Source: an uncultured Alphaproteobacteria bacterium (lineage in GTDB: Bacteria > Pseudomonadota > Alphaproteobacteria > ATCC43930 > CGMCC-115725). Taken from it: a DNA stretch of 64,000 nt. This document shows, piece by piece, positions 23,252 to 42,940 of the stretch (position 1 is the stretch's first letter; every line of letters begins with the position of its first letter). Both the position numbers and the translations under genes were made by a program. The DNA is taken from contig CAVZQT010000004.1 in NCBI GenBank assembly GCA_963777435.1, forward strand, positions 960,730-1,024,729. Reading direction: 5' to 3'. Under the pieces are notes generated by a model. The model was given only the letters and a program-made list of their open reading frames with translations, searched no databases and was not told where the DNA came from.

Positions 23252-23330
23252 CTTAGTTCCTCCCGGCTGGGGGGCAAAAGAAAGCTCGGCAAGTTGCCGA
23301 GCTGGACTATCAAGTTGAAGGTTTAGGGGC

Positions 23331-25445
23331 TCACTGTCCGATCGCTTCTTGTCTCCGGGTGAGGCCGGGTGGATGAATGGGGCGGGCGTAGCTCGCCTTT
23401 ATCAATGTCAACGTCTGTTCTTCCTTGCTCATTTGAGAGAACGCTATCGCGAGTTCGTCGGTCGAAAATGCGTTGCTGCCGGTGTCCTGGTGTTTTGCAA
23501 TCGCGGCAACGCTCTTTGCTATCGTAACTGGAGCTAATGGAGTACGGGCAATATCCTCTACTCGTTTCGTCAACTGATCGAGACGGGGCATAATATCTGC
23601 GAGTGTCGTGATCAAAGCTGCCTTTTCAGCTTCCTCTCCTACGAACGTCTTACCCGAACTTCCTGACGACGCGGCCTTTGCTGGCTCGAAATCCGTCCTC
23701 TCCGACCCACCCTCGCCATCAGAGGTGACGTTGTCGCACACCGCTCCAGCCGCAGTCAGATGGTCATGAGCTCTCAGCAGATAACCCGATGTCTCCATAT
23801 CGTTGCGGCCACAAGCGTGCGTGGCGCGGTGGCAGCAGGCTCCATTGGTTAGTTTACAAACGCACTCGTGAGCTACGTCCAACAATGCCAAGTAACCAGT
23901 CGCTCCTTTACTCAGCGCCGCCGCGATCATATCGATCACCCCCGTGCTGGATGGAGCGTTTGCCGCACTGTTGAGTAAATCATTTTTCCCAGAACGGAGC
24001 GCTGGTGATGCCGCATCTGACTTCGAGGGATCAACCTTTGCCATGCGCGCAAGGTCGAACCCTGATTTTTCGCCAGCTAAGGCCCCCGCATCGTCGAGTG
24101 CTGAACGCGCCATGGCTATATGGCTTTTTTCCCCGTACCGCAATCCATGCATTCTCAGGCACTGAGAAACAGCCTGGTGCGCAAGGTCTAGAAGCGCTTG
24201 GTCTGCTTCAGTGTTCCTGGCTTTAATCAAGATTGCAGCCGCTAATTGCTGCAGATTTCGACTCCGTCCCTGCCACAAATCAGCAGCTAGGCGGGCTCCT
24301 TGAGTACCTGCGGCCATAATCATGGTATCGGCCGCTGTTCCAATCGGTGGTTCTCCCGTCAGGTCGGCCATGTCCAATATTTCACTGGCCTCCTCCGTCA
24401 CCAACGCGCCCAACAACCCGCACAGCTGGTTGATAATCCCTTGGAGCGCCGACGCTTCCGTGGAAGCGTCCCCCTCGATCTCCGCTTCGGCTGCAAGGCT
24501 CTCTTCAAGCCATGTTAATTCAAGTATGATGCGAACTACATAGCCAACATCCCATAGCGTCTTTGTCAGTGGCGGTTGTGCTCCCGTTTTCTGCTGGTTT
24601 AGCGATGGAGGCCCATCCTTATCGATTTTTTGCTTCCAGGCAGAAACGATACGAGCCTTGATCTGGTCAAGCTGATCCGGTGTGTACTGTCGCGCATTTC
24701 TGGGGCGGTTGATGAAATTCCAAGCGGCTCTGATGTGTCGCTCCGTGTCTATTGGGTATCGCTTTTGGCCATCTGACTGGTAGCCGGGATCGGCGTAATC
24801 ACCTTCGTTATAACCGGAATTGTTCTCAGCTTCGGTATTAGCTTTGTCCCGCTCACCTCCGGTAGCTGCACTGGAAATTCTCATTGTAGGACTCAGATCT
24901 TTATCTGACCTCTGCACTTGACACAGCACGGCGTGTGATGCGGCTAAGTGTCGGTGCCTGGGCACATCGCACGCCCAAGATTGCAATGATGAATTCAGTC
25001 TCACCTGCGGCTTCCTTGAAGCGCCAGCTGATTTCCAATAGTCGAACACCGCTTCCGGATTGGCCGGCCGATCGACCAGAGAAATCTCATTTAGGACGAG
25101 CCCGGTGATCGTCTTGTAATCGGTAGGATCTCGATGGGTTACATGACCGCCAATTGAATAACCCTTATAAACCCCCTCGACTACCTTCTGCCACGCGACC
25201 GGATCAACGATCTTAGCACCGATATAGAGCCCCTTGTCATCAACTGCGGCTTCCTTGGCAACTCCGACTGCGGATAGCTGATGCATTTCACGGATATTGG
25301 CAAATTTCATGTAGTCGCCAACGGCTGATATCAGCGCGTCGCGTTTTATAACTTCGCCCTGGTCGTCACGCGCCTCGGTGGATGCATAGCCCCACACCTC
25401 ATGTCTTTCCGCGTCGATTTTAGCTAGGGGGAAGTATATTTTCAT
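23331..25445 (-). CDS. prohead protease fused to a scaffold-like helical region
   Basis: The N-terminal ~135 aa match the HK97-type protease pattern (EVWGYASTE..., GYSIGGHV, LNEISLVDRPANPEA). This is followed by the YADPGYQSDGQKRYPIDTERHIRAAWNF motif and long helical Ala/Leu-rich sequence. Confidence 0.78.
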   Translation of the reverse strand: MKIYFPLAKIDAERHEVWGYASTEARDDQGEVIKRDALISAVGDYMKFANIREMHQLSAVGVAKEAAVDDKGLYIGAKIVDPVAWQKVVEGVYKGYSIGGHVTHRDPTDYKTITGLVLNEISLVDRPANPEAVFDYWKSAGASRKPQVRLNSSLQSWACDVPRHRHLAASHAVLCQVQRSDKDLSPTMRISSAATGGERDKANTEAENNSGYNEGDYADPGYQSDGQKRYPIDTERHIRAAWNFINRPRNARQYTPDQLDQIKARIVSAWKQKIDKDGPPSLNQQKTGAQPPLTKTLWDVGYVVRIILELTWLEESLAAEAEIEGDASTEASALQGIINQLCGLLGALVTEEASEILDMADLTGEPPIGTAADTMIMAAGTQGARLAADLWQGRSRNLQQLAAAILIKARNTEADQALLDLAHQAVSQCLRMHGLRYGEKSHIAMARSALDDAGALAGEKSGFDLARMAKVDPSKSDAASPALRSGKNDLLNSAANAPSSTGVIDMIAAALSKGATGYLALLDVAHECVCKLTNGACCHRATHACGRNDMETSGYLLRAHDHLTAAGAVCDNVTSDGEGGSERTDFEPAKAASSGSSGKTFVGEEAEKAALITTLADIMPRLDQLTKRVEDIARTPLAPVTIAKSVAAIAKHQDTGSNAFSTDELAIAFSQMSKEEQTLTLIKASYARPIHPPGLTRRQEAIGQ

Positions 25446-25536: not shown

Positions 25537-25914
25537 CTATTGCTCCTGCGGAGCGCATTGGACTGTCGAATTTAGGCTTAAAACCCGGCCATCGCTGAGA
25601 TGGACAGTTGCCTCAAGAATATAAGTAGCGCCTATCGCGGAAGTCGGAAAGCCTCCGACCGTAGCAACGGAAAAGGAACCCGTCTTCGTCTGCAATGATC
25701 CATCGAGAGGAGACCGTAACTGGACCGCCTCTTCCGTGGTAGCTGCTAATATCCTTATCTGCGGAGCGGGATCAGTTGCCGTCTGAAACGGGGCGAACTT
25801 ACAGGTCCAGTTCGTCGATAGGATCGTGGCAGATCCAACTTCCGCGGTGAAGTCAAAGGCGAAGGTATCAATCTCGTTGTACTCGATTGGACTGAAAGAG
25901 GTCGGCAATCGCAT
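25537..25914 (-). CDS. hypothetical protein
   Basis: 125-aa ORF, beta-rich, with no signal peptide. Confidence 0.5.
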   Translation of the reverse strand: MRLPTSFSPIEYNEIDTFAFDFTAEVGSATILSTNWTCKFAPFQTATDPAPQIRILAATTEEAVQLRSPLDGSLQTKTGSFSVATVGGFPTSAIGATYILEATVHLSDGRVLSLNSTVQCAPQEQ

Positions 25915-26035
25915 CTGAGCTCCTTCGAACCGGTCAAACCTGTCGACCGACCAATGACTAGAAGCTTCGCGCAGCTAAAGACTAGGTAAATGGCCGGCCG
26001 CCCATCAACACCAATCATCCTCGACGATCGAGTTA

Positions 26036-27223
26036 TTACCTCCACCTGGCGAGAATACGAATCTTGCCGGGAGACTTCAGGAGACGACCAAGAGCGAGCT
26101 GTACGATCGGAGTAATCCAGGACTCGACAGCTGCGAGGCTCGCGCCCACTGACGAGATCAATATCTCGCATGTAAAAGCATCGGCGGTAGTAATCTGGTA
26201 GCCTACCTCGACCGCGAGGAACGCATCGGCGACTGCGGCCGCCTCGCCCAGGGTTTCGATTTGCGGTGGGGTGTCCCGCACCGCTCGCGTGAGCGCTTCC
26301 GCACCAAGAATATTACTGCCGCGGAGCGCGCCGCTACTTTCGGCCGCGGCGTTTCGGTCCGCGGTTTGCTGCACCAGCAATTCGATTGCCGCGAACGCAT
26401 TGCTGGTGATCGGGCCACCCGCGGCCGTCACGGTGAATTCAACCGGCGCGCGCCCGTCAAACAGTACCGCCCCCGACCAGGCGATCGGCGCCGGCTGCGG
26501 GTCGATACGCTGCCCGGCAACAAATCCGAGGGCAACAAACTGATCGGCGCTGAGCGCGGCCGAGCCGAGGTTTTCAAGCGGCGCATTGGCGTCACGTAGC
26601 GCGCGGCTCAGCGCTTCGATTAGCGCCGAGGAACCGGCCCGTCGCCCGGCGAGCGCTTCCGCCGTGGCGTTGGCGTCGCCGCGTTGGGTCGCGTTGTCCT
26701 CGCCCGGGACCAGAGCATCGCGCTGTTTCCCGGCGAGGATTTCGAGCGGGGGGAACTCATCGCCGACAACGCTGTTGGCGCCGAGGTTCTCGAGCGGGTC
26801 GCCGCTGTCGGTAATTTGCGTCGCGGAAAACGCTACCGGATCAATCGCATCGCCGCGTGCATTACCGAGACCTTCGAGCGGCGCCATGATGTTATTTTGC
26901 AGGTTCGCGGCGCTCTCGGCCGGAGTCAAGCCATCGCTAATCCGGTGCGACAGCCATTCGGCCGATGTCCCGGCTTCGAGGATGGCGTTGCCAAGCGGTT
27001 CGATTGACGCCGAAACGTGGCGTTGCAGCCTCGCCAAGTACTCGGTTAGGGCCGCAGCATCGGCACGCGATTCCGCCAATGCGTCGGCGGCGAGCAAGCC
27101 ATTAGCAAGAAGCCCAACATTTATTGCGGCCGGCAGGTAGGCATCTGTGGTAACCGTGGTCCCGCTGACGAAGTAACGATCAGCGCGCGGCCCCCCTGGT
27201 CGATGCGCAATCCACACCGCCAT
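26036..27223 (-). CDS. repeat protein with a recurring (P)-L/I-E-x-L-G/A motif
   Basis: 395-aa ORF. About 13 occurrences of the short motif, e.g. IEPLGNA, APLEGLGNA, DPLENLGAN, PPLEILAGK, APLENLGSA, PQIETLGEA. Confidence 0.6.
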   Translation of the reverse strand: MAVWIAHRPGGPRADRYFVSGTTVTTDAYLPAAINVGLLANGLLAADALAESRADAAALTEYLARLQRHVSASIEPLGNAILEAGTSAEWLSHRISDGLTPAESAANLQNNIMAPLEGLGNARGDAIDPVAFSATQITDSGDPLENLGANSVVGDEFPPLEILAGKQRDALVPGEDNATQRGDANATAEALAGRRAGSSALIEALSRALRDANAPLENLGSAALSADQFVALGFVAGQRIDPQPAPIAWSGAVLFDGRAPVEFTVTAAGGPITSNAFAAIELLVQQTADRNAAAESSGALRGSNILGAEALTRAVRDTPPQIETLGEAAAVADAFLAVEVGYQITTADAFTCEILISSVGASLAAVESWITPIVQLALGRLLKSPGKIRILARWR

Positions 27224-27225
27224 GA

Positions 27226-27972
27226 TCAGAACCGCCCAACGCTTACCCGGCCGTTGGCGAGGTTGTTGTTGATCTTCCGCGCGCAGCTTGTGTAGGAGCT
27301 ACTGCTGCCGGCGCAGATGCTAAAAGCGGTACCGCTGACGCTCGACGGATTGGCCGTGGCGCCGAAGCTGTCCGTCATCTGAAAGCTCGTCGGCGATCCC
27401 CAACTCGGCGCCGCCCCATTGACCGAGATATTAGTGAATGTCAGCGTCCCGAAATTTGGCAGCGGGTTTGTCGTGTTTAAATCCTCGGTCATGATGTCGA
27501 ATTTCGATAGGCTGGTCTGCAGTGTGTCAGTCGGCGACCACGTCCATCCTTCCGTCACGTTCTGCACCTTCATGGCCCAAGTCTGTGAATTTCCAGCGGT
27601 GCAGTTTGCGGTGCAGGTCAGGGAAATCTTAACGATGTCTCCGCCAACCGTCGTGTGGCCGGGCGTCGTATCATTGACCGCTCCGGCCGGGTACATCTCG
27701 TAGAACGCGCCATAGGAAGGGGCACCCTGCGCGGTTATGGAGAAGGACATGCCGACCTGCGCAAGGTTGGTTCCGTCCTCGATGCCGACCCAGGCGATGA
27801 TGTTGTTGCCGGCTGAAGTCGTCGAGTTCGAAACCCAAGGCACGCGGATCGTTGCCCCGATCGATGTGTAAGTCGAGCCCGAGGCTTGGTAGCCGGCAAA
27901 GCCCGCGGTCGCGTGCGCAGCGTCGAGGCCCCCCAGCAAGCACGCCAGAGCGAGAACAAGACGCTTGAGCAT
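27226..27972 (-). CDS. secreted G1-family (eqolisin-like) glutamic peptidase homologue
   Basis: Signal peptide MLKRLVLALACLLGGLDAAHA. Motifs AWVGIEDGTNLAQVG, YGAFYEMYP and SKFDIMTEDL parallel the AWVGIDG..LQTG, AWYEWYP and FIIEDFE motifs of scytalidoglutamic peptidase, and the catalytic Gln and Glu positions are conserved. Confidence 0.6.
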   Translation of the reverse strand: MLKRLVLALACLLGGLDAAHATAGFAGYQASGSTYTSIGATIRVPWVSNSTTSAGNNIIAWVGIEDGTNLAQVGMSFSITAQGAPSYGAFYEMYPAGAVNDTTPGHTTVGGDIVKISLTCTANCTAGNSQTWAMKVQNVTEGWTWSPTDTLQTSLSKFDIMTEDLNTTNPLPNFGTLTFTNISVNGAAPSWGSPTSFQMTDSFGATANPSSVSGTAFSICAGSSSSYTSCARKINNNLANGRVSVGRF

Positions 27973-27974
27973 GC

Positions 27975-29264
27975 TTAGTTACCGACAACGATGCAGATGC
28001 CGTCGCCACCCGCCCCGCCAGCGCCAGCGGTTCCGGTCGCCGCGATGACCGCGCCACCACCACCGCCACCAGCGCCGTAGCCGCCTGTCCCGCCCGTGCC
28101 CGCCGTTGAGGCGGCTGTTCCAGTGTTGCCACCGCCAGCGCCAGCGCTGCCGTTGGCGCCCCCGATCGTCGGATTGGAGGGGCTGACGCCGTTGCCGCCG
28201 CTCGAGGTCGTTGAGCCGGTCGTGTTGGTGCCTCCGGTCGGGGCAGACAATTCGCTCGGCGCGATACCGCCGGCGCCAGCCATGCCGCTGGTGTTATTGC
28301 CGGCGCTGCCCCCGCTGGGGCCGCCATAGAGCCCCCCGTAAAGACCGGAGCCGCCGGCCGACGGGCCAGCGCGGCCAGTGAAATCATTGTTTGAAAGGTT
28401 GAGACCAGCCGTTGAGGCATTGACGCCATACGTCCACGTCGCTGCCGCGCCATTGAAATTGGACGCTGCGGCTCCGCCATAGCCGGTGACAAAGCCACCA
28501 AAGCTGGAGTTGCCTCCGGCCGTGCCCGCATTGTAACTAGCCGCCGTCGACACCGTGCCGCCAGCACCGCCTTGCCCCACCGTGACGGTGACGCTCGAAC
28601 CTAGCAGCGAGGCTGGGATCGTCGCGATTGCACCCGCGCCGCCGCCCCCACCACCCCCACTGAATCCCGAGGTCGATACCTCGCCGCTGGCCCCGCCACC
28701 GCCAGCACCCAGGCAGTAAGCCGTCACATAGCTGATGCCGGACGGCTTCGACCATGTATAGGTGCCGTGCCCAGTATAGACATTGGTAAAGCCGGTGGCC
28801 CCGCCGCTGCCGCACCCGAACTGACCGAGCGCCACATAATACGAGCCGCTCGGGCCACCGGACGCGATGACCTTGCCGATCGTCTGACCTGAGCTCGGGC
28901 AGGTTGAAGCGCCGGTATCATGCCCATAGCCGCCGGTCGTGCTCGAAATCTGCACGAAATCGCCGGCCGTCCCGCTGCCATCGAGGAGCAATGCCGCCGT
29001 TCCGTTGGTGGCAATCTGTGCGCTGCCCGATGTCCCGCAGCCGCCTACGCATACGCCGCGAACCCCGTTGCTGTCGGCAGTCGCCGCAATGACTGCGTTG
29101 CCACTGCTGTTGATCTTGGTCAGGGTGTAGAGTGTCGTTCCAGTCGTGCCGGCATTGGTCCGGTCTTCAAGCAGCCCGTTCTGCGTCGACAGATCCAGAC
29201 CTTGCGCCCAGGCTGGCAATGCCGCGACCGAGGTCAGCAGCCCAAGGATAAACGATCTCTTCAC
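27975..29264 (-). CDS. secreted glycine-rich domain protein (fibre-type YTW..P.G / GGGGG module)
   Basis: GTG start at 29264 with AAGGAG 6 nt upstream. Signal peptide VKRSFILGLLTSVAALPAWA. Contains YTWSKPSGISYVTAYCLGAGGGGASG...VTVTVGQGGAGG and a long Gly-rich C-terminus. The track ORF starts at 29483. Confidence 0.7.
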   Translation of the reverse strand: MKRSFILGLLTSVAALPAWAQGLDLSTQNGLLEDRTNAGTTGTTLYTLTKINSSGNAVIAATADSNGVRGVCVGGCGTSGSAQIATNGTAALLLDGSGTAGDFVQISSTTGGYGHDTGASTCPSSGQTIGKVIASGGPSGSYYVALGQFGCGSGGATGFTNVYTGHGTYTWSKPSGISYVTAYCLGAGGGGASGEVSTSGFSGGGGGGGAGAIATIPASLLGSSVTVTVGQGGAGGTVSTAASYNAGTAGGNSSFGGFVTGYGGAAASNFNGAAATWTYGVNASTAGLNLSNNDFTGRAGPSAGGSGLYGGLYGGPSGGSAGNNTSGMAGAGGIAPSELSAPTGGTNTTGSTTSSGGNGVSPSNPTIGGANGSAGAGGGNTGTAASTAGTGGTGGYGAGGGGGGAVIAATGTAGAGGAGGDGICIVVGN

Positions 29265-29281
29265 GGTAGCTCCTTTGCACA

Positions 29282-30018
29282 TCATTGGTGCGCAATCGCT
29301 ATTGAGACAACGGACCCGATCGCCGAGGTGAATAAGTAAGTATTCGAAAATGTTCCGGAGGCCGGGATTGGTCCATTGCTGTCGAAGATATAAGGGAACG
29401 AATAAGCTACGCCGTGAACGACGCTTGTCAGGGCGCTGTTCGTCCAGCTTATCGAGCCCCCACCGAAACCACCGATCACCCATGTATTGAGACTATTTGT
29501 TGTGACGTCGCCGGCCAGGCTGTTGGCGGATGTGGCCCCTGTCGTATGGGTTGTTGCGGCGCTGTCCAGGCCGAAAGTCTTGACCCCACTGTAATCCGCC
29601 GCGACGGCCAAGAGGTACGTGTCAGAGCCAGTGTTATTCTGGCTGACGACGAGTTGTACGTCCCGATTGATGGACTGAAGAGATAGTAGAGGTATTGGCA
29701 GCGAAGGCCGCCGGTGGCTGCACCAATCAACTTCCCAGCCTGTATCATCGCCGCGCCGTTGAAGGTCACCCCGGTAACGTTATCCGCGGACGATCCGTAG
29801 GCGCCGGAGATCGATACGACCAGCAGGTTCGACAGGGGCTTGGTCGTGTAGCTCCTTGTCATGGCGCCGGACGCACCGCCATTATTCCCCAGATCGGCTG
29901 ACCCTTGGCGGACAATACCGGTGCGTTGGTCCCCCACAATGCCCATGAGCTGAGCCGTCGCCAGCCTCGGGAGAAGCAGCGGCGCTGGCATGGCGAGCAG
30001 TAGGCGGCGCCTGAGCAT
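29282..30018 (-). pseudogene. secreted protein gene, frameshifted
   Basis: N-terminal frame 29476..30018 (MLRRRLLLAMPAPLLLPRLATAQ..., protein-like up to ..CQYLYYLFSPS). The C-terminal part lies in another frame (..INRDVQLVVSQNNTGSDTYLLAVAADYSGVKTF..., track ORF 29282..29611). Confidence 0.6.
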
Positions 30019-30776
30019 CAGTTGTACCCGTAGGAACAGGTCAACGCGGTTCCTGGAGCGATCGACCCGGTCGCAGTGGTTGTCGCCGCGTAGCTTATTG
30101 CTGTGCCGAATTGCTCGCCCGGAAACGGCATTGTGAAGCCGCCATTAAGGGTCGCCGGCACGGGGACAACATCGACCGGCGTCGAGGATCCGAGCGTGAC
30201 CGAGCCCGAGGCGATATTGAAAATCTGCACGTAGGCCACGGTCGCGTTCGGGTTGTAGCAGAGCATCTTGCCGAGCTGTCCGGCGCTCGATTTGATTGAG
30301 GTAACAGTGGTCGAGACCGCCGCGGTGATGCCGGGCGTCCATCCGCCTGAGGTTGTGAGCGCTCCCGTTACGGCGCCGATCGTGTTTGAGCCAGCCGGAA
30401 GCGCCGCATTGACCTGAACGCCGTTGGTGCTTCCGGGCGTCGTCTGATCGATCCCGACCTTGCCGATAATGGCGGACCCCGCCGTTAAGGAACCGAGCGC
30501 ATTGGCCCCCGCAGGCAGTGGCGAGTTCGGCGACAGGCTGACGACGGCGGCCGGATCAGTCGCCACAGCTGCGGTCGAGGCTGCTTTGACCGCCCCACAA
30601 TTGGCCAATGCCGAGCCGTCGCACACCGCAATCTTAGAGCCAAGATTGCCGCTGCCATCGGTCACGGCGTCGAAATTCGTGCCGGACCCAACCGTGACAG
30701 CATATGTGGTGCTGCCAGCCCAAGCCTGGGTCGCCGTGAGCGCCAGCAATGCGCCGGCGAGGAATTGCTTGATCAT
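30018..30776 (-). CDS. secreted T/S/G/A-rich protein
   Basis: Start at ATG 30776 (ATGA overlap with the upstream stop). Signal peptide MIKQFLAGALLALTATQAWA. The track ORF starts at 30842. Confidence 0.65.
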   Translation of the reverse strand: MIKQFLAGALLALTATQAWAGSTTYAVTVGSGTNFDAVTDGSGNLGSKIAVCDGSALANCGAVKAASTAAVATDPAAVVSLSPNSPLPAGANALGSLTAGSAIIGKVGIDQTTPGSTNGVQVNAALPAGSNTIGAVTGALTTSGGWTPGITAAVSTTVTSIKSSAGQLGKMLCYNPNATVAYVQIFNIASGSVTLGSSTPVDVVPVPATLNGGFTMPFPGEQFGTAISYAATTTATGSIAPGTALTCSYGYN

Positions 30777-31069
30777 TGGAGCACCGTTGGAACAGAGACC
30801 GAGCTGCACGCGGTATTGACCGCCAGGTTCAGCACGCCGCACAGTGTCGGGCCACCGTCGGAATCACCGCCGACGACCTGGACATAACTGCCGTTTGGCA
30901 GGTAGACGAAGCTGCCGTTCGGCAAGTAGACAAAGGTGGACGGCGCGGTAGCCGTCGAATTGCTGCCGGCGCCGAGGATCAAGAAAGCCCGCGCCACACC
31001 CGCCAGAGTGATGGTAGCGACCAGGACTGCGAACCCACACTCGGCGGCGCGTCTAATCAACCGCTTCAT
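30773..31069 (-). CDS. small secreted protein with an FVYLPNGS duplication
   Basis: Start at ATG 31069 (TGATG overlap). Signal peptide MKRLIRRAAECGFAVLVATITLAGVARA. 98 aa. Confidence 0.55.
   Translation of the reverse strand: MKRLIRRAAECGFAVLVATITLAGVARAFLILGAGSNSTATAPSTFVYLPNGSFVYLPNGSYVQVVGGDSDGGPTLCGVLNLAVNTACSSVSVPTVLQ
30887..30934. repeat. 24-bp tandem duplication (2 copies)
   Basis: ACTGCCGTTTGGCAGGTAGACGAA / GCTGCCGTTCGGCAAGTAGACAAA, 20/24 identical. It encodes the duplicated FVYLPNGS in the 98-aa secreted protein. Confidence 0.85.
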
Positions 31070-32091
31070 CAGCTGGGCTTCAAAAAGACCGTGATGCCGC
31101 CGATCGCGGCCCCGGTGCCCCAACCAGATCCCGCGGTCTGCAGACAGATCGAGGTGCCATTGGAGATGGTCGGAGTCCCGGAGGTGATGGTTTGGTTATT
31201 GGTGGCTGAGCCATTGGCGTTGAACGACGTCGAGATCGCGGTTCCGGCCGAGCAAAGCGTGCCGGACGCGGCCGAATTGACTGTGATCGTCGCCGTCGCA
31301 CCCTCGGCGACCTCGACCCGCCCGACGATCGCCTGCACGGTGTAGGCGCCGCCGCTCAGATTGGTGAAGACCGTGGCATTGTTCGGGTTCTGGCCGGCGA
31401 CCCAGCCGATCGCTACTGGGATCAGGGTCGGCAGGTCGGCATTGACGATCGCTCGCGGCGTCATCGCCCCCGACGATCCATTGGGCGCCGCGAGGAAAAG
31501 GTTGGCCGTCTGACTCGCACCCGTCACCGTGAGAGTGCCGCCGGTCCCCGTCAACGGAGATCCCGAGACCGAGAAATAGGACGGCATCGATAGCGCGACC
31601 GATGTAATTCCGGCCGACGGCAAAAATCCGACGTAATTGGTGCCGTCCGGGTCCGCGATGCTGAAGCAGGTATTGGCCGGGATCACCAGCGACGACGAAC
31701 CGTTGACCGTGCTTGGGCTGGTGACGGTTAAGGTGTCGGGCTGAGCTGTCGTACAGATATCGACCGAGAACCCCGCGCCAAAGCCGGTGGTCGATACGTT
31801 CGGCAAGGTGTCGGCGGTGGTGCCCGAATAAGTGCGTTTGACAACCTTGGTGTTGTCACTCGCGGCAATGGTGTAGCCGGAGCCGCCCTGAGTGTTGGCC
31901 AGTAATGTGGTCCCGACCGTGCAGCCGGTCGGCGCTGCGCAGGATGCTCCGCCATTCAGCAGGACATTGGGGGTCGCGGCCGTCAGGCTGGTAATGCCGC
32001 GGATGATGCTTTGCGCGTCGCCTCGACCGATAAACCCGATCCCCGCGATCAGCGCCGCGGCACCAGTTACCGCCCATAGGACCTTACGCAT
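31069..32091 (-). CDS. secreted fibre-like protein
   Basis: Signal peptide MRKVLWAVTGAAALIAGIGFIGRGDA. The internal segment SVSGSPLTGTGGTLTVTGASQTANLFLAAPNGSSGAMTPRAIVNADLP resembles a repeat common in phage tail-fibre proteins. Confidence 0.65.
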   Translation of the reverse strand: MRKVLWAVTGAAALIAGIGFIGRGDAQSIIRGITSLTAATPNVLLNGGASCAAPTGCTVGTTLLANTQGGSGYTIAASDNTKVVKRTYSGTTADTLPNVSTTGFGAGFSVDICTTAQPDTLTVTSPSTVNGSSSLVIPANTCFSIADPDGTNYVGFLPSAGITSVALSMPSYFSVSGSPLTGTGGTLTVTGASQTANLFLAAPNGSSGAMTPRAIVNADLPTLIPVAIGWVAGQNPNNATVFTNLSGGAYTVQAIVGRVEVAEGATATITVNSAASGTLCSAGTAISTSFNANGSATNNQTITSGTPTISNGTSICLQTAGSGWGTGAAIGGITVFLKPS

Positions 32092-32605
32092 AAGCTTCGG
32101 TCACGTAGGTGGCACTCTGATTGCCACTCGAATAGGCGGCGAGCGCGGCACCGCAATTGTTGTAGAGCAGCACCGCGCAATAGGTTGGGACATTGCCGAT
32201 CAGCCCGCGGATCGATTGCCAGCGCGTCTGGTAAAGGGTAACACCCGATTGCATTGTCAGGGTGTCGATCAGTGCCAGAGCCGCGGCCGCCGGATCAAAT
32301 GCGAGCCAGCCGGAAAGGGCCGTCGATTGATCCGAGGTCGAATTCGGGTCAATTCCGCCCGGCCATATCGAGCTGTCCTCGCTAAATAGAAGATAGCGGG
32401 AGATCGTGTTGCCGGCCGTAACGGTGCCAGTCGCAATTTTCCACGGCGGCAGGATGATGTCGCCAAAGGGTTGACTGATTGTTCCGGGGCTGATGACCCC
32501 AAGTCCTTTCGCCTGCCCATTGGCCAGGCTGCTCAGGTTGTCCGGCGACTGGTTCGGGCCCTTTGGCCACGTCGCTGCCGTCGCCCGCGACCACGGGTTG
32601 CTCAT
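32084..32605 (-). CDS. hypothetical protein
   Basis: 173-aa ORF with no signal peptide. Overlaps the next gene by 8 nt. Confidence 0.55.
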   Translation of the reverse strand: MSNPWSRATAATWPKGPNQSPDNLSSLANGQAKGLGVISPGTISQPFGDIILPPWKIATGTVTAGNTISRYLLFSEDSSIWPGGIDPNSTSDQSTALSGWLAFDPAAAALALIDTLTMQSGVTLYQTRWQSIRGLIGNVPTYCAVLLYNNCGAALAAYSSGNQSATYVTEAYA

Positions 32606-32651
32606 TATTTGGACGGGCCTTTCTCATATAGCGACGGTTCGCTCCGGGCGA

Positions 32652-32855
32652 TCACCGCGTGACAATCCGCAGCCCAAAGGGACCAAAATTGTGCTCTACA
32701 GTGTCTCCGGCTGCATTGCGTAGCATGCACAGCCCGGTTTCGACCGAGGCCGACAGGATCACCCCCGGCAGATCCTGCATCGTGTCGGTACGGACGATTT
32801 TGTAACGGCGGCGATGGACCTCCGGATCAACAGGAGTCAAGCGCATAGGCAACAT
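32652..32855 (-). CDS. 67-aa hypothetical protein
   Basis: ATG at 32855 preceded by GAAGGAGG with 7-8 nt spacing: MLPMRLTPVDPEVHRRRYKIVRTDTMQDLPGVILSASVETGL.... The longer track ORF (to 33113) overlaps the upstream gene. Confidence 0.5.
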   Translation of the reverse strand: MLPMRLTPVDPEVHRRRYKIVRTDTMQDLPGVILSASVETGLCMLRNAAGDTVEHNFGPFGLRIVTR

Positions 32856-32973
32856 CGCTTTCGCCTCCTTCGAGACAGAATCAGCAGAACGGCAATAAAG
32901 CTGGATAGAAACCTTCAATGCTCTTTGCGCTGAATTTTCAACGCGGTCGCACTGATTTTTGAATATGGCTAAT

Positions 32974-34074
32974 TTAGATGGTCGTGCCCTGAGTCCGTAT
33001 ATCCGCAGAGCCCTTGTAGGCGGCGGTTCCGGCTGGCAAGGAGAGGCGTAACCAAACGCCTTGCGCACCCGCGGCGTTATTGCCGGGGGGAAGGTTCCCG
33101 GCCCCAGGCACATTTATGAAGGCCGGTTGAGCGATGAATGAGCTGAGGCCAGTCGGCAAGAACCCCGATGATTGCTGACGCGGATTGGCCGCGTTGGTGT
33201 CATTCAGCGATGTACAGAGGCCGATATCGAGTAACGCAACAGAAGGGAGCGTCGGCGCCTCAAGGGCAACTTCGATCTGCGCTCCGGTCAAAGCTGTAGA
33301 GGCGTTCGTGTTGACCACAAACACCTTTTCGTAGAAATAGCGAGCCGATCCACCCGGTACATCCGCTGCTAAGGTCCAAAAACAGCGCGTAATCGCGGTT
33401 ACCGGATTCGGGCTGATCTCGAACAGCATACCTTGGAGGATGTCGTAGCTCGTGGCGTTCGTTGGGATGGTTACCCAATCACGGTTTACAGCGACGACGT
33501 CGGTTCCATAACCGGATGTCGCAACAATCATGCGCAACTGGTATTGCACGCCAGCCGGGGTGTTGTTCAAAATCCGAATGATCATCCCGGGCGACACACT
33601 AGCGCCGTCGCCCGATTGCAATTTGAACAGCGGCGGCGTGGTGCCGGATGTGTTGGCGGCGCCGGTTTGCGCCGTATGGCCGGCAATGACCTGTGTGCTC
33701 GCATAGAGAGCTACATCGCCAACTGCCGGCGTTCCGGTCGGATTACTCAACACGGCGATCGATCCGCCCGTAATGACCGCCGCACCGATGCGCTCAAAGA
33801 TCTGGGAGGAACCGATGCTGGCTACCGGAGTCGTTCCCGTGAGGGTGATGGCTGGGGGCGTTTGGATGACACCCGACGCGTCTCGGCCAGCGACCTGAAG
33901 CTTGGTTGCGATGTCGGAGGACGAACTCGACACTGCCGACAATTGCCCATTTGGGCTGATGTCGTAAAAGGCGACGCGCTTAGTGAAATCGACCGCGCCG
34001 CCGACCATCGCGCCATCGGCTTCCGGCATATTCGCCGAGCCGTATACGACAATATTGTTCGGAGTGACACTCAT
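32974..34074 (-). CDS. hypothetical protein (366 aa)
   Basis: GAGGAG precedes the ATG. T/S/A/G-rich and beta-type, with no signal peptide. First gene after the AT-rich gap downstream of the portal. Confidence 0.6.
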   Translation of the reverse strand: MSVTPNNIVVYGSANMPEADGAMVGGAVDFTKRVAFYDISPNGQLSAVSSSSSDIATKLQVAGRDASGVIQTPPAITLTGTTPVASIGSSQIFERIGAAVITGGSIAVLSNPTGTPAVGDVALYASTQVIAGHTAQTGAANTSGTTPPLFKLQSGDGASVSPGMIIRILNNTPAGVQYQLRMIVATSGYGTDVVAVNRDWVTIPTNATSYDILQGMLFEISPNPVTAITRCFWTLAADVPGGSARYFYEKVFVVNTNASTALTGAQIEVALEAPTLPSVALLDIGLCTSLNDTNAANPRQQSSGFLPTGLSSFIAQPAFINVPGAGNLPPGNNAAGAQGVWLRLSLPAGTAAYKGSADIRTQGTTI

Positions 34075-34362
34075 ACGCGTTGTCTCCTCAAGTCCAGAAG
34101 GACAAGGATGTAAAAAATATTGCAGTTAAACCGATTTGATCAGTTCATATCCGATCTGATAGTTCGCCTCCTGCGACTTTTATCAGAGGTGCAGGGCTGC
34201 TTATGGAAGGCGCTATTTCCGTATTCCTAACTCCGACGAGCGGTATCGCGCTCATACTGTTCAATTCGTCCGAAGGTAATATGAAGATCTACGATCCTAG
34301 TGATGATCATTAAGTTAATATGACACCGCAAGGAAACTTAGACGATTTAAGAGGTGCGCGTC

Positions 34363-35707
34363 CTAATGTAATTGCTGATTGTCTCCGCCAACTGGAGGGA
34401 GTCCAAAAATCTCCCGGGCTTCATTCAAGGTATAGATTCCATCTTTTACGTAAATGTCGAGTATTGCCGCTTGATCCTTCGGGTTCGCAGGCTGCACGTC
34501 GGTCCACACAAACTCTAGGTCCGAGTGCCCCATCCGGTCCTGAATGACACCGTCTACTAAGCGTTTGACCCAGCCAGTAAGCGGCGCGAGTCCCTCTTCA
34601 ACTGCAGTCTCTTGGGCAGATTGCGCTGTCGCGCGATTCACTTGCGCGGTAAAGGCAGTGGGTGGTAGTGAAAAAGCATAGCAGACGATGCGCGCCAGCC
34701 ATTCGTCGAACTCATCCTTGTATGGCGCTTCTTTGAAAGCCTGGTATTTGGCCCCGGTCGGCGCCCAGATGAGGCGCGTCCGATTGGCGGAATTACCGGC
34801 CAGAATCGAGTTCGAACCACTCCTGGAACTGCCTAATCTGTTCGGCACTCCAGCCGTCCGGAGCATTAACCAAGCCAGGGGGGACGTTTCCGTCCGTGAA
34901 GTGCTGCAACTGCATTACTTGCCGCCGCAGGCCGATATTGATCGTCATGATTATTTGTTCGCAGGGGCCAAAGCCATACGCCCTATGAGGCCGCCGATTC
35001 CGAGGCATATAAATCAGTTCGTCGGACGTAAGCAGCTTCCAAGGCCGCCCGTGAATGATCTGCTCGTAACCTGGCGCAGGCGGTCGGGGACGACGTCCCG
35101 TGTCGTCAATTAGCACCTTGATAGTCGATCCGTCGACGACATCAAGCCCGATCACGTCTCCGGCGCGGTTACGGCGCACCTCTAAACAGGGGGCATCCAG
35201 TACCAAAAGGTCCTCGAGCAATTCGCGCAGCCAACTAGCGAAGGGCTGGTCGCCATCAGGCTTTCGCCAGAAATCAGTCAATCCGGATATGCGCTCCGGT
35301 GCGTCGTTTATTGGCTTCGCCGCCTTCCGAGCCCGAATTCTCCACTCGAGCTTTTCGATTTGATCCTTTCGCGTTTCAATAGCCAGCCGTGTAATATCGT
35401 GATTTTCGGCCAACCCGCGAAGATCTTGAAACCCGATTGGCTCGTAGGCGCGTGGTGTATAAATTGTATTGTAGCCGACCGGAAAATCCCAAACTCGAAC
35501 GCGTTCGCGTTCGGGTGGGACCAGCGGGTAACCGGGTGAGAATATTCCCTGGTCGGGTTGAAATATTTGTCGATACGCGGTGATGTCGTTTTGCGAACCC
35601 ACCCCGCCCCAGCTATATGAAGCGAGCGAAGTGCGCTTTCCTCCAGGAAAGCTCATAATAAAACTACCCGACAACTCGATGCAATAAGTTTGCCACAGCA
35701 TCACCAT
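34363..35707 (-). pseudogene. portal protein, split by a +1 frameshift
   Basis: The N-part 34793..35707 ends ..PDGWSAEQIRQFQEWFELDSGR*. The C-part is in the +1 frame (..ILAGNSANRTRLIWAPTGAKYQAFKEAPYKDEFDEWLARIVCYAFSLPP...). Together they give a portal-like ~430 aa. The likely true start is MSFPGGKR at 35656. Confidence 0.75.
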
Positions 35708-42916: not shown

Positions 42917-42940
42917 CTTGATCCTCCCGCCAAACGCTGA

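What the first reader, a model, noticed from the sequence alone, without database searches (positions are those of the whole stretch)
25537..34074. Nine-kb cargo block between portal and prohead protease: a translationally coupled run of six signal-peptide proteins
In HK97-type late operons the portal, protease and capsid genes are normally adjacent. Here 11 extra minus-strand ORFs sit between them. Six consecutive ORFs start with textbook cleavable signal peptides: MRKVLWAVTGAAALIAGIGFIGRGDA|QS (31069..32091), MKRLIRRAAECGFAVLVATITLAGVARA|F (30773..31069), MIKQFLAGALLALTATQAWA|GS (30018..30776), MLRRRLLLAMPAPLLLPRLATA|QL (29282..30018, RR motif), VKRSFILGLLTSVAALPAWA|QG (27975..29264) and MLKRLVLALACLLGGLDAAHA|TA (27226..27972). 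Their junctions are TGATG, ATGA, TGATG and ATGATG overlaps (31067-31071, 30773-30776, 30016-30020, 29280-29285), so they form one coupled operon. Virion parts assemble in the cytoplasm and normally lack signal peptides, so this looks like exported cargo rather than head or tail components. Against that, several members have fibre-like T/S/G/A-rich sequence. By eye the block is more GC-rich (about 62-65%) than the flanking head genes (about 50%). It is preceded by a 290-bp AT-rich gap. The IS-interrupted tailspike-like gene upstream of the portal also begins with a hydrophobic, signal-like N-terminus (MAKLFSFIVQSAIAFAAF). I know of no described system with this composition.
Basis: partly seen in the sequence, partly recalled or inferred. 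Interest (0 to 1): 0.8.

Follow-up and report, generated by a model that had tools for sequence, protein, structure and literature searches.

The report
Exported fibre-like proteins inside phage operon
Six secreted fibre-, lectin- and protease-like proteins are encoded in a row in a variable slot of a phage-like element of soil Stellaceae bacteria; secreted copies of the same phage fibre-tip domains recur in unrelated soil phages, I found no description of such a module, and its job (my best guess: acting on the cell's own surface sugars) is untested.

Summary
Eleven minus-strand genes (A-K) lie between portal and prohead protease. Six consecutive genes (D-I) start with signal peptides. The same block recurs in four related elements under purifying selection.

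Corrections:
- Gene G carries a frameshift.
- The G/H junction is a spacer, not an overlap.
- GC is 61.5% against 54-55%, not about 50%.

Not all eleven are cargo. A, the C-terminal tail of J, and K are non-secreted core genes of a large family of phage-like elements. These elements usually sit beside clpB, and no integrase was seen.

In 68 such elements the A-K interval measures 0.6-7.8 kb. Most hold one non-secreted glycine-rich protein; nine hold three or more signal-peptide genes.

Export looks real. In two unrelated domain families, the D knob and the F jelly-roll, a conserved cysteine pair occurs almost only in members with a signal peptide (Fisher p = 5e-9 and 4e-7).

Runs of signal-peptide genes from the same families also occur in phage contigs with P22-type and T7-type portals.

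Function is unknown. My best guess (0.4) is that they act on the producer's own envelope glycans. I found no published precedent.

The parts
32974..34074 (-). A: 366-aa all-beta protein without a signal peptide. It is a conserved core gene directly downstream of the portal in every element of the family.
   Evidence: At least 873 homologue clusters, with named sources from Stellaceae MAGs. None of 120 homologues has a signal peptide. The AF2 model has pLDDT 88.5. It has no PDB match, and in BFVD it matches only uncharacterised Caudovirales proteins (best E = 2e-7).
32652..32855 (-). B: 67-aa ORF without a signal peptide.
   Evidence: Kept in L001 and L004-L006 at 78-94% identity with dN/dS 0.03-0.14. 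No family hit.
32084..32605 (-). C: 173-aa protein without a signal peptide. It is the first gene of the packed run and overlaps the start of D by 8 nt.
   Evidence: A C homologue is present in most of the related elements that carry signal-peptide runs, including L064, L086, L091, L078 and L098. It is not seen in the common arrangement without signal peptides. Junction.
31069..32091 (-). D: 340 aa. Signal peptide (..GRGDA|QS), then a fibre motif (VTSVxL..SPxT..GTL..ANLFLAxPNGSSGA..PRAI..ADLP) and a ~110-aa C-terminal knob with a Cys pair.
   Evidence: Only 18 homologues were found, 14 of them with a signal peptide. The knob also ends long fibres without a signal peptide, and those lack the Cys pair. 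dN/dS is 0.07-0.10.
30773..31069 (-). E: 98-aa small protein with a signal peptide (..GVARA|FLILGAGS) and a C-terminal Cys pair.
   Evidence: Small signal-peptide proteins with two Cys sit next to D-like or F-like genes in L002 and L029. Further small signal-peptide ORFs, whose sequences I did not examine, sit next to them in L013, L021 and L024.
30018..30776 (-). F: 252 aa. Signal peptide (..TQAWA|GS), a 'GKVGIDQTTPGTTNGVQVNAALPAG' repeat region, and a C-terminal jelly-roll domain with a Cys pair (C173, C247).
   Evidence: 4,355 representatives in 1.84 billion proteins. In the AF2 model the C-terminal domain (147-252) has pLDDT above 90. Foldseek gives only weak jelly-roll matches. The Cys pair tracks the signal peptide.
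29282..30018 (-). G: about 245 aa with a signal peptide (..PRLATA|QL) and a lectin-like beta domain. It is broken here by one frameshift into ORFs 29476-30018 and 29282-29611. This is a hypervariable slot.
   Evidence: Three unrelated alleles occupy this position in orthologous elements. All have a signal peptide followed by a conserved 'LGI.G.QR' start. Allele 3 gives a weak GH54 ArabFuran-catal hit. The broken ORF is also in a Logan assembly.
27975..29264 (-). H: 429 aa. GTG start after an AAGGAG Shine-Dalgarno sequence, signal peptide (..LPAWA|QG), and a glycine-rich domain.
   Evidence: Pfam Gly_rich_2 PF21722, 38.3 bits against a cut-off of 24.3. phrog_863. The same domain, without a signal peptide, forms the N-part of the usual ~500-aa occupant of this slot.
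27226..27972 (-). I: 248 aa. Signal peptide (..DAAHA|TA) and a glutamic peptidase (G1/A4, eqolisin) fold.
   Evidence: Pfam Peptidase_A4, 71.4 bits against a cut-off of 22.3. A profile of four orthologues hits scytalidopepsin B (1s2b) at E = 6.5e-6 over residues 8-202 of 206. Q72 and E163 are invariant candidates for the catalytic Gln and Glu.
26036..27223 (-). J: 395 aa without a signal peptide. It has 'PLExLG' repeats and a conserved C-terminal tail (..GRLLKSPGKIRIL). It is the last gene of the packed run.
   Evidence: The tail and repeats are kept in every slot variant examined. They stand alone as 142 aa in L064 and are fused behind a Gly-rich domain in L043 and L028. dN/dS is 0.25-0.31.
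25537..25914 (-). K: 125-aa core gene without a signal peptide, directly upstream of the protease.
   Evidence: Present in 62 of the 68 related loci analysed. Identity is 60-84%. No PDB or family hit.
34075..34362 (.). 288-bp AT-rich (44% GC) gap between the portal and A.
   Evidence: Only the Shine-Dalgarno region is conserved among orthologues. No promoter or terminator call falls in the gap, and there is no Rfam hit.
34363..35707 (-). Portal gene (PF04860), split here by a frameshift into 34793-35707 and 34363-34866.
   Evidence: By the tblastn frames it is a single reading frame in L004 and L006.
35834..39839 (-). Pectate-lyase-type spike gene with its own signal peptide, split by an IS256-family insertion. 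Spike pieces are about 35837-38230 and 39645-39839. The transposase is at 38265-39545.
   Evidence: Pect-lyase_RHGA_epim and Transposase_mut (1e-64) hits. N-terminus VAKLFSF..KPAFS|QSPGTFS, with signal peptides in the orthologues.
21752..25445 (-). Protease/scaffold fusion (23331-25445; Peptidase_S78 plus DUF6582) and major capsid protein (21752-23251).
   Evidence: The capsid protein is 93-94% identical in L001 and L004-L006, with dN/dS 0.03 measured in L004-L006.
40417..46301 (.). Left boundary of the element: TerL (40417-41787, -), a weak DUF6456/GafA-like ORF (41974-42618, -), a divergent S24 LexA/CI-like ORF (43205-43681, +), and host clpB (43707-46301, -).
   Evidence: The same order is seen in every related locus that extends far enough. 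clpB is adjacent in L028, L031, L088 and L089.

Best explanation
The block is a cassette sitting in a variable slot, not a set of head genes.

The element is phage-like and widespread in Stellaceae. It is usually found beside clpB, and the window shows no integrase or replication genes. Between portal and protease it always carries core genes without signal peptides: A, a protein ending in J-type repeats and tail, and K. Between A and J/K lies a hot spot for exchange.

In the window's lineage this hot spot holds a tightly packed run. It starts with C (no signal peptide). Six Sec-type pre-proteins follow: D (fibre with a knob), E (small), F (jelly-roll tip), G (a lectin-like slot with swappable alleles), H (glycine-rich) and I (glutamic peptidase). 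The spike upstream of the portal also has a signal peptide.

Shown or strongly inferred: these proteins are exported across the inner membrane, their signal peptides are removed, and they are stabilised by disulfides. They are paralogues of virion fibre-tip domains that have been retargeted outside the cytoplasm.

Inferred mechanism: when the late operon fires, they bind or cut the producer cell's own envelope glycans or surface proteins, in the periplasm or at the cell surface. This would mask or destroy the receptors that the particles use. Released particles would then not be wasted on debris or on sister cells, competing phages would be excluded, and exit through capsule or slime would be eased. 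Allele swapping at G and the changing cassette content would track receptor diversity.
For: Export:
- Signal-peptide features are confined to the six consecutive genes. They are kept in orthologues and distant homologues although the signal sequences themselves differ.
- Mature D, E, F, H and I have even Cys counts of 6, 2, 4, 6 and 4.
- In the F domain family the Cys pair occurs in 34 of 34 members with a signal peptide and in 4 of 17 without one (p = 5e-9). In a second, non-overlapping set the counts are 54 of 55 and 9 of 20 (p = 4e-7).
- In the D knob, the signal-peptide members have the pair. The long fibres without a signal peptide (L019, L022, L023, L025) lack it.

Cassette nature:
- The A-K interval ranges from 0.56 to 7.8 kb in 68 elements. 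The number of signal-peptide ORFs is 0 in 43 elements, 1 in 11, 2 in 5, and 3 or more in 9.
- G is replaced by unrelated alleles.
- GC3 is 0.72-0.79 for D, E, F, H and I, against 0.55-0.59 for the head genes.
- The same families form signal-peptide runs in phage contigs with P22-type and T7-type portals.

Functional genes:
- dN/dS is 0.05-0.39 with dS about 1.

Glycan- or envelope-directed content:
- A pectate-lyase spike with a signal peptide.
- GH54-like and LamG-like alleles at the G slot.
- Peptidase A4.
- Sister cassettes carry a GDSL-family esterase (Pfam hit in L029), a protein with a GDSIT motif (L101), or proteins with an alpha/beta-hydrolase GLSGGGW motif, all behind signal peptides.
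- The same slot often holds a 109-aa lipoprotein. This recalls the T5 arrangement of the llp gene next to the receptor-binding protein gene (own knowledge).
- No N-terminal virion-docking domain is recognisable in the spike, whose pectate-lyase match starts a few tens of residues after the predicted cleavage site.
Against: - No experiment exists and no homologue has been characterised.
- The final location (periplasm, outer membrane or medium) is unknown. The block encodes no outer-membrane translocation device.
- Apart from the central gpJ-like fibre, this element shows no receptor-binding protein without a signal peptide. The exported proteins could therefore be the particle's own fibres.
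- L028 fuses a G-like lectin domain, an H-like Gly-rich domain and J-like repeats in one 666-aa protein without a signal peptide. This links the exported G and H to the non-exported J and fits assembly on particles.
- Receptor masking in a lysogen would normally call for a separate promoter. None was detected, and the run looks like part of the late operon.
- The copy in the window is decaying.
Confidence: 0.4

Rival explanations
1. Virion fibres matured outside the cytoplasm. D, F, G, H and the spike are the particle's real receptor-binding proteins. They are exported so that they can fold and form disulfides in the periplasm. They dock onto heads or tails, perhaps through A, the J repeats or K, only when lysis mixes the compartments.
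For: - All spike- and fibre-like genes of the element carry signal peptides.
- In several phage contigs the D-like genes with signal peptides sit where tail-fibre genes normally sit, after internal-virion or tail proteins.
- The G slot shows a conserved N-start plus a swappable C-domain, the usual design of receptor-binding proteins.
- The L028 fusion of G-like, H-like and J-like parts links the exported and non-exported components.
- The genes are embedded in, and tightly packed with, the late structural genes.
Against: - As far as I know, no tailed phage is known to add Sec-exported fibres after lysis.
- The spike lacks a recognisable particle-binding N-domain.
- 43 of 68 related elements have no signal-peptide genes in the slot and carry a fibre-like protein without a signal peptide there instead.
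- Exported hydrolases (peptidase, esterases) in the runs are hard to explain as fibres.
Confidence: 0.2
2. Host-serving surface adhesins or lectins, that is, lysogenic conversion. The cassette is a moron expressed independently of particle production. It decorates the cell with phage-derived fibres and enzymes for adhesion, matrix remodelling or nutrient capture, as Bdellovibrio does with its MAT fibres.
For: - GC3 of D, E, F, H and I (0.72-0.79) is at or above that of host genes (0.67-0.69) and far from the phage core genes.
- A 288-bp AT-rich gap upstream could hold a promoter.
- The element sits at a fixed chromosomal site with saturated dS, which suggests long residence in the host lineage.
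- The MAT precedent: phage-fibre-like proteins with signal peptides located on a cell surface.
Against: - No promoter or terminator was detected around the run.
- The same families occur in contigs that look like lytic or complete phages (L029, L116, L002), inside the structural modules.
- The gap sequence is not conserved.
Confidence: 0.15
3. Egress or lysis helpers. The exported enzymes and binders attack envelope layers (capsule, S-layer, peptidoglycan-linked structures) from the periplasmic side to complete lysis, as the exported PBSX protein XepA does.
For: - The set includes an exported peptidase and a pectate-lyase-like spike.
- In L026 and L028 the same slot holds an Rv2525c-type glycoside-hydrolase-like gene.
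- A 101-aa ORF with two hydrophobic segments that I read as holin-like sits in or just past the slot (L072, and after K in L051 and L071); a lipoprotein lies in the slot in other elements.
Against: - Most members (D, E, F, G, H) look like binders and not enzymes.
- The glycoside-hydrolase-like proteins in L026 and L028 have no signal peptide.
- Fast allele turnover at G suits receptor specificity better than a generic lysis function.
Confidence: 0.1
4. The N-termini are not export signals. They are hydrophobic N-terminal segments of ordinary cytoplasmic virion proteins, or artefacts of start-codon choice.
For: No dedicated predictor (SignalP) could be run. E has further hydrophobic residues after its AXA site.
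Against: - The n-h-c architecture and AXA sites are kept while the sequences diverge.
- The A family, used as a control, gives 0 of 120.
- The Cys pair co-occurs with the signal peptide in two independent domain families.
- Starts are fixed by overlapping stop/start junctions and Shine-Dalgarno sequences.
Confidence: 0.04

Closest known systems
Phage morons / lysogenic-conversion and superinfection-exclusion envelope proteins (T5 Llp, phi80/N15 Cor, lambda Lom and Bor)
   Same: - They are accessory genes placed among late structural genes.
- Their products are exported to the envelope.
- Llp blocks the phage's own receptor and protects progeny from debris (own knowledge).
- A lipoprotein gene occupies the same slot in many sister elements.
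   Different: - Here there are six tightly packed Sec pre-proteins, not one lipoprotein. None has a lipobox.
- They are paralogues of fibre-tip domains and enzymes.
- No separate promoter or terminator was detected.
Bdellovibrio MAT (mosaic adhesive trimer) fibre proteins (PMC10769870)
   Same: Phage-tail-fibre-like proteins that carry signal peptides, have variable C-terminal binding tips, and are located outside the cytoplasm.
   Different: - MATs are chromosomal predator genes and are not part of a phage late operon.
- All MATs share a ~130-aa beta-rich N-domain, and many have an S74 chaperone-protease. No S74 domain or other MAT feature was detected in D-I.
PBSX exported protein XepA in a defective-prophage late operon
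   Same: An exported protein encoded in the late region of a domesticated, DNA-packaging phage-like element (own knowledge). The 6i56 entry, named 'PBSX exported protein XepA', appeared among weak fold matches.
   Different: - It is a single protein tied to the lysis cassette of a Gram-positive bacterium.
- It shows no similarity to D-I. The fold match was for A and was insignificant.
RcGTA-type gene transfer agents
   Same: - The tail genes are of the RcGTA type: DUF2460, Gp84_N/BR0599, and Phage-tail_3 plus Rcc01698_C.
- It is a head-tail cluster with no integrase or replication genes seen, at a mostly fixed chromosomal site, with structural genes under purifying selection.
- A weak GafA-family (DUF6456) ORF lies upstream.
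   Different: - The capsid, protease and portal are of the Brevundimonas phage Polewnik type (41% identity for the capsid protein).
- The cluster spans about 33 kb.
- RcGTA keeps its head-spike and fibre genes elsewhere in the genome, and they have no signal peptides (own knowledge).
- Packaging of host DNA is untested.
Scytalidoglutamic peptidase / eqolisins (MEROPS G1, Pfam Peptidase_A4)
   Same: Protein I matches the family over its whole length. Like the fungal enzymes, it is secreted.
   Different: - The context is a bacterial phage-like element.
- The catalytic Gln and Glu align only after I shift HMMER's register by hand.
- The substrate is unknown.

Membership tests
Sec (SPase I) cleavable signal peptides | Positively charged n-region, uncharged hydrophobic h-region of 7-15 residues, and small residues at -3 and -1 (AXA) within about 15-40 residues of the start | tested here: met
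   My own scorer flags D, E, F, G, H and I with scores of 3.8-5.3 and cleavage after GDA, ARA, AWA, ATA, AWA and AHA. It flags none of the 13 other element proteins. The control family A gives 0 of 120. SignalP was not available.
Sec (SPase I) cleavable signal peptides | The product lives in an oxidising compartment, shown by disulfide cysteines that co-occur with the signal | tested here: met
   F domain: 34/0/4/13 (p = 5e-9) and 54/1/9/11 (p = 4e-7); counts are signal peptide with pair / signal peptide without pair / no signal peptide with pair / no signal peptide without pair. D knob: the pair is present in the members with a signal peptide and absent from the four long fibres without one.
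Sec (SPase I) cleavable signal peptides | Actual translocation and cleavage | not testable with these tools
   This needs PhoA or BlaM fusions, N-terminal sequencing, or periplasmic proteomics.
Tat signal peptide (for G) | Conserved twin-arginine motif (S/T-R-R-x-F-L-K) | tested here: not met
   G has MLRRRLLL, but the other G-slot alleles begin MWLRLLL and MLARLVF, each with a single R.
Peptidase A4 / G1 (eqolisin) | Sequence match above the curated cut-off over the whole domain | tested here: met
   PF01828, 71.4 bits against a cut-off of 22.3, covering profile positions 3-173 of 206. The orthologue profile hits 1s2b at E = 6.5e-6.
Peptidase A4 / G1 (eqolisin) | Catalytic Gln53 and Glu136 (scytalidopepsin B numbering; residue identities taken from my own knowledge) | tested here: inconclusive
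   In HMMER's register these residues fall 2-4 positions away from the invariant Q72 (LAQVG, compare ILQTG) and E163 (DIMTED, compare EFIIED). Shifting the local register by hand aligns both.
Gly_rich_2 (PF21722) proteins | Domain match above the curated cut-off | tested here: met
   H residues 166-426, 38.3 bits against a cut-off of 24.3.
Phage moron | Composition differs from that of the neighbouring phage genes | tested here: met
   GC3 is 0.72-0.79 for D, E, F, H and I, against 0.55-0.59 for portal, protease, capsid, adaptor and K.
Phage moron | Own promoter and terminator flanking the insert | tested here: not met
   The sigma-70 and terminator scans give no site in the gap and no excess over shuffled sequence. 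Alphaproteobacterial promoters may be missed.
RcGTA-like gene transfer agent | Head-tail gene cluster without integrase, replication or lysogeny-switch modules | tested here: inconclusive
   None was seen between clpB and the aminotransferase gene (about 9.3-43.7 kb) among the larger ORFs I scanned; several smaller ORFs were not scanned. An S24 repressor-like ORF is present.
RcGTA-like gene transfer agent | Same chromosomal locus across diverged hosts (vertical inheritance) | tested here: inconclusive
   clpB is adjacent in the window, L028, L031, L088 and L089, but not in L071 or L101. dS is saturated for clpB and for the element genes alike.
RcGTA-like gene transfer agent | GafA-type activator | tested here: inconclusive
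   DUF6456 hit of 22.2 bits, below the cut-off of 26.3. DUF6456 corresponds to GafA homologues according to PMC9638019.
RcGTA-like gene transfer agent | Particles package random host DNA | not testable with these tools
   This needs particle purification and sequencing.
Bdellovibrio MAT superfamily | Signal peptide followed by the conserved ~130-aa beta-rich N-domain; an S74 chaperone-protease in many members | not tested
   A signal peptide is present. No S74 or other domain was detected in D-I by Pfam or NCBIfam. No direct comparison with MAT sequences was made.
Llp/Cor-type exclusion lipoproteins | Lipobox (L-x-x-C) at the end of the signal peptide | tested here: not met
   None of D-I has Cys at +1. 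Lipobox ORFs do exist elsewhere: window 9635-9964 and the 109-aa slot gene of sister elements.

The most novel reading that the evidence does not exclude
The exported proteins are the particle's own receptor-binding fibres. They are sent through Sec so that they fold and form disulfides in the periplasm, and they join the cytoplasmically built heads and tails only at lysis. This would be a two-compartment assembly route for a tailed phage or GTA-like particle. It may be widespread in soil phages, since 4,355 representatives of the F family exist and most of the close ones examined carry a signal peptide.
Probability: 0.2. Interest if true: 0.9.

Novelty: new variant of a known kind. Interest (0 to 1): 0.68.

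Why it matters
Phage fibre tips are normally studied only as parts of the virion. Here the same tip domains exist in two forms:
- a cytoplasmic form without the cysteine pair;
- a secreted form with the pair.

The secreted forms travel as multi-gene cassettes between unrelated soil phages and a phage-like element that may be domesticated.

If they mask or remodel receptors, this would be a general strategy for controlling adsorption, superinfection and release in soil bacteria that I did not find described. If instead they are virion parts added after lysis, the textbook view that tailed-phage assembly is purely cytoplasmic would need an exception.

Practical consequences:
- Pipelines that label every fibre-like phage gene as 'tail fiber' will misassign these genes.
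- The co-occurrence of signal peptide and cysteine pair gives a simple sequence rule to separate the two forms.
- The clpB-linked element is a candidate new GTA-like system in Stellaceae.

Tried and rejected
Searches that found nothing:
- blastn of the block against 50,697 phage records.
- tblastn of A, J, D, H and F against the same records. A relative of F without a signal peptide gave only two partial hits.
- Sequence searches of the PDB with A, D, J and K.
- NCBIfam for ten block proteins.
- PHROGs for most of the signal-peptide proteins in other phage contigs.
- Rfam on the whole window.
- Five literature searches for secreted fibre-like phage proteins, receptor masking, and the Gly_rich_2 family: no direct precedent. 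One search found only the Bdellovibrio MAT fibres, a partial analogue.

Searches that were uninformative:
- Foldseek of the confident A model against the PDB gave nothing below E = 1e-3.
- Foldseek of F's jelly-roll gave only generic viral jelly-roll and carbohydrate-binding-module matches.
- The promoter and terminator scan showed no excess over shuffles.

Ideas rejected:
- 'The block is a single foreign insertion that truncated the portal.' The Pfam portal domain is complete (profile positions 6-320 of 321), and orthologues share the same end.
- 'High GC is only due to Gly/Ala-rich proteins.' GC3 is also raised.
- 'The genes are pseudogenes.' dN/dS is 0.05-0.39.
- 'Block proteins are paralogues of one another.' BLAST finds no similarity among them.
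- 'G has a Tat signal'.
- 'E is a membrane-anchored holin-like protein.' The hydrophobic stretch after its AXA site, FLILGAG, matches the mature N-terminal motif of G-slot proteins.

Full report
**1. What is in the window**

The minus strand between 20.6 and 41.8 kb carries a phage late region in this order:
- TerL (40417-41787);
- a conserved 145-aa ORF;
- a pectate-lyase-type spike split by an IS256-family transposase gene (38265-39545);
- a portal split by a frameshift (34363-35707);
- a 288-bp gap at 44% GC;
- eleven ORFs, which I call A-K (34074 down to 25537);
- a protease/scaffold fusion (23331-25445);
- the major capsid protein (21752-23251);
- a head-tail adaptor.

Further down lie RcGTA-type tail genes: DUF2460, Gp84_N/BR0599, and Phage-tail_3 plus Rcc01698_C. 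They are fragmented. Only a 137-aa piece of the tape-measure gene remains, and the gpJ-like gene is split in two.

- G is one gene with a frameshift. The same broken ORF appears in a Logan assembly of run ERR11594406.
- H starts with GTG at 29264 behind an AAGGAG Shine-Dalgarno sequence, so there is no overlap at the G/H junction.
- GC is 61.5% for the block against 54-55% for the flanks.

**2. Are the signal peptides real?**

A simple scorer for n-region, h-region and AXA site flags exactly D, E, F, G, H and I among the 19 element proteins tested. It flags almost nothing else in the window. It flags 0 of 120 homologues of A, against 14 of 18 homologues of D and 55 of 120 homologues of F.

The signal peptides persist in orthologues and in distant homologues, while their sequences drift.

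The strongest evidence is evolutionary.
- The C-terminal jelly-roll of F has a cysteine pair (C173, C247). Among 51 complete family members, the pair is present in 34 of 34 with a signal peptide and in 4 of 17 without one. Three of those four have hydrophobic N-termini that my scorer missed. Fisher p = 5e-9.
- A non-overlapping set drawn from an exhaustive search gives 54 of 55 against 9 of 20, p = 4e-7.
- The unrelated C-terminal knob of D behaves the same way. The members with a signal peptide carry two cysteines. Four long fibres without a signal peptide lack them; these are 414-1,117 aa, and one has a collagen-like N-terminus.
- Mature D, E, F, H and I all have even cysteine counts.

I conclude that these proteins are exported to an oxidising compartment. 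They are retargeted paralogues of virion fibre-tip domains.

**3. What the individual proteins are**

- D has a widespread fibre motif and the knob.
- F has 'GKVGIDQTTPGTTN' repeats and a jelly-roll domain. The AF2 model gives pLDDT above 90 for residues 147-252. Fold matches are only weak and generic.
- G is a lectin-like beta domain in a slot where three unrelated alleles replace one another. All three keep a signal peptide and an 'LGI.G.QR' start. One allele has weak GH54-like similarity.
- H has a Gly_rich_2 domain.
- I is a Peptidase_A4 (eqolisin) homologue that matches scytalidopepsin B over its full length. It has invariant candidates for the catalytic Gln and Glu.
- E is a small two-cysteine protein. 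Comparable small signal-peptide ORFs sit next to D-like or F-like genes in other contigs, with two cysteines confirmed in L002 and L029.
- The spike upstream of the portal has its own signal peptide in the window and in three orthologues.
- A, B, C, J and K have no signal peptide. A folds confidently into an all-beta multidomain protein with no PDB match. In BFVD it resembles only uncharacterised Caudovirales proteins.

**4. The element and the slot**

The same TerL-spike-portal-A..K-protease-capsid order occurs in three species-representative MAGs (L004-L006). An ENA contig (L001) carries the part from A to the adaptor. All block genes are under purifying selection there, with dN/dS 0.05-0.39 and dS about 1.

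A has at least 873 homologue clusters, and the named ones come from Stellaceae.

In 68 related loci the A-K interval ranges from 0.56 to 7.8 kb. Forty-three loci have no signal-peptide ORF in it, 11 have one, 5 have two, and 9 have three or more.

The commonest occupant is a ~500-aa protein without a signal peptide. It is built from an H-like glycine-rich part, J-type repeats and the conserved tail 'RLLRSPxxIRIL'. In L028 a G-like lectin domain is fused in front of this. The slot often also holds a 109-aa lipoprotein.

Most of the related elements with signal-peptide runs carry a C homologue ahead of the run. So A, the J tail and K are core genes, and B-I are the cargo.

GC3 of D, E, F, H and I (0.72-0.79) differs from the core head genes (0.55-0.59). 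It even exceeds the host genes (0.67-0.69), which indicates a separate history or separate selection.

The closest cultured phage, Brevundimonas phage Polewnik, has portal, a 593-aa protease homologue and capsid genes adjacent, with no such slot.

**5. Recurrence elsewhere**

Signal-peptide runs built from the same families occur in unrelated phage contigs.
- L029 has a P22-type portal. Between the portal and the scaffold/capsid genes it carries a Tat-like 83-aa ORF, then (after one ORF without a signal peptide) 134-aa and 60-aa ORFs, an F-like protein, and a 299-aa protein with the G-type start. A GDSL esterase with a signal-like N-terminus that scores below my threshold follows.
- L116 has a T7-type portal. 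It carries eight signal-peptide ORFs, including an F-like protein and a G-allele-3-like protein; a 447-aa one looks spike-like by eye.
- L002, L011, L021 and L024 carry runs of signal-peptide ORFs around a D-like gene; in L002 and L011 the run follows internal-virion-type proteins.
- L030 carries versions without signal peptides (a spike plus an F-like protein) in the same portal-to-capsid position.

The F family has 4,355 representatives at E of 1e-3 or better in 1.84 billion proteins.

**6. Nature of the element (side finding)**

Every related locus that reaches far enough upstream shows a divergent S24 LexA/CI-like gene, a 101-aa ORF, a weak DUF6456 ORF (the family of the RcGTA activator GafA), and then TerL. 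clpB is the neighbour in five of seven informative cases.

Synonymous divergence is saturated for clpB and for the element genes alike. No integrase or replication genes were seen in the window.

This pattern fits a long-resident, possibly domesticated GTA-like element. It does not prove it.

The window's own copy is decaying: an IS in the spike, frameshifts in the portal and in G, and broken tail genes.

**7. How it most likely works**

Shown:
- the gene order and tight packing;
- purifying selection;
- cassette turnover;
- signal-peptide architecture;
- the coupling of cysteine pair and signal peptide.

Inferred: export and disulfide formation.

Hypothesis (0.4): the exported binders and enzymes act on the producer's own envelope glycans or proteins when the late genes fire. 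They would mask or destroy receptors and ease release. This extends the logic of T5 Llp with retargeted copies of the particle's own binding domains.

Support for this hypothesis:
- the enzyme content of this cassette and its sisters: a pectate-lyase spike, a glutamic peptidase, GDSL-type esterases, and alpha/beta hydrolases;
- the lipoprotein gene in the same slot in sister elements;
- the absence of a recognisable particle-docking domain in the spike.

Against it:
- the block encodes no route across the outer membrane;
- no separate promoter was found;
- the L028 fusion ties G-like and H-like domains to J repeats.

Rivals:
- fibres that mature in the periplasm and join the particles at lysis (0.2);
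- host-serving surface adhesins like the MAT fibres (0.15);
- lysis or egress helpers like XepA (0.1);
- N-termini that are not export signals (0.04).

**8. Comparison and novelty**

The block works like a moron or exclusion module. However, it fails the lipobox test and the own-promoter test.

It resembles the Bdellovibrio MAT fibres in putting phage-fibre folds behind signal peptides. It sits in a phage late operon, though, and I detected no MAT domains in it.

I found no homologues in Pfam, PHROGs or NCBIfam beyond the Gly_rich_2, phrog_863 and Peptidase_A4 hits. None turned up in 50,697 phage records either. The literature searches gave no precedent.

I rate it a new variant of a known kind, namely exported phage accessory genes. 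There is an unexcluded 20% chance that it reflects a new two-compartment assembly route.

**Limits**
- No dedicated signal-peptide predictor was available.
- There are no expression or localisation data.
- All relatives are uncultivated.
- Several assemblies used for comparison carry indel errors.

Noticed in passing
window 9300-43700, with flanks 8057-9283 and 43707-46301: The whole element is about 33 kb of head, tail and regulator genes lying between an aminotransferase gene and clpB. No integrase or replication genes were seen. A divergent S24 LexA/CI-like ORF (43205-43681) and a weak DUF6456/GafA-like ORF (41974-42618) lie upstream of TerL. The same layout next to clpB is seen in L028, L031, L088 and L089. 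This makes it a candidate GTA-like domesticated element of Stellaceae.
   Followed up: partly
window 38265-39545 (transposase); spike pieces about 35837-38230 and 39645-39839: An IS256-family (Transposase_mut, 1e-64) element interrupts the pectate-lyase spike just after its signal peptide and first ~65 residues. The orthologous spikes in L004 and L006 are uninterrupted.
   Followed up: partly
window 34793-34866 (portal), 16449-19265 (tape-measure region), 10907-13470 (gpJ-like): The portal is frameshifted, only a 137-aa tape-measure fragment remains, and the gpJ/'megatron'-like gene is split in two. Host genes in the window are intact. This copy therefore looks like a decaying element, not a sequencing artefact.
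   Followed up: partly
window 9635-9964 (-): A small ORF with a lipoprotein-type signal (..MALFAAGC) lies at the far end of the element. It could be a spanin or an exclusion lipoprotein.
   Followed up: no
L051 5595-5924, L071, L075, L091, L101 (between the J-like gene and K): Many sister elements carry a conserved 107-115-aa lipoprotein (lipobox LALSGC) in the same slot, directly before K. This recalls the arrangement of receptor-binding protein gene plus llp in T5-like phages.
   Followed up: no
L028 12723-14723: A single 666-aa protein without a signal peptide fuses a G-like lectin domain, an H-like glycine-rich domain and J-type repeats. This fusion links the window's exported G and H to the non-exported J.
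   Followed up: partly
window E 30773-31069 and G 29282-30018; L004/L006 G slot; L029 9822-10004 and 10774-11673: Mature N-termini right after the predicted cleavage site share a short motif: FLILGAG, LMGIVGDQR, MLGIYGYQR, FLGIIGTQR, PTLGYGAG and FLGIVSSGK. The motif recurs across unrelated proteins and phages. It may be a docking strand or a sorting signal.
   Followed up: no
window 39965-40402 (-): A 145-aa ORF directly after TerL is conserved at 67-82% identity in most related elements where this region is present. It has no family hit.
   Followed up: no
L026 2928-7496: In this more distant element the signal-peptide proteins sit in the other variable region, between TerL and the portal. 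They are the spike, a 130-aa protein, a 318-aa protein with the GTVSSVGL fibre motif, and a 178-aa protein. The portal-protease slot there holds an Rv2525c-type glycoside-hydrolase-like gene and a Laminin_G_3 gene without signal peptides.
   Followed up: partly
L001 and L028 (ENA assemblies ERZ25039537 and ERZ25039553): These contigs carry many frameshifts, including in clpB. They look like assembly indel errors, so broken genes in them should not be read as pseudogenes.
   Followed up: no
window 23331-25445: The 704-aa protease/scaffold fusion contains a DUF6582 domain (1.3e-13) between the S78 protease domain and a long C-terminal region. Its cysteines are clustered at positions 528-570.
   Followed up: no
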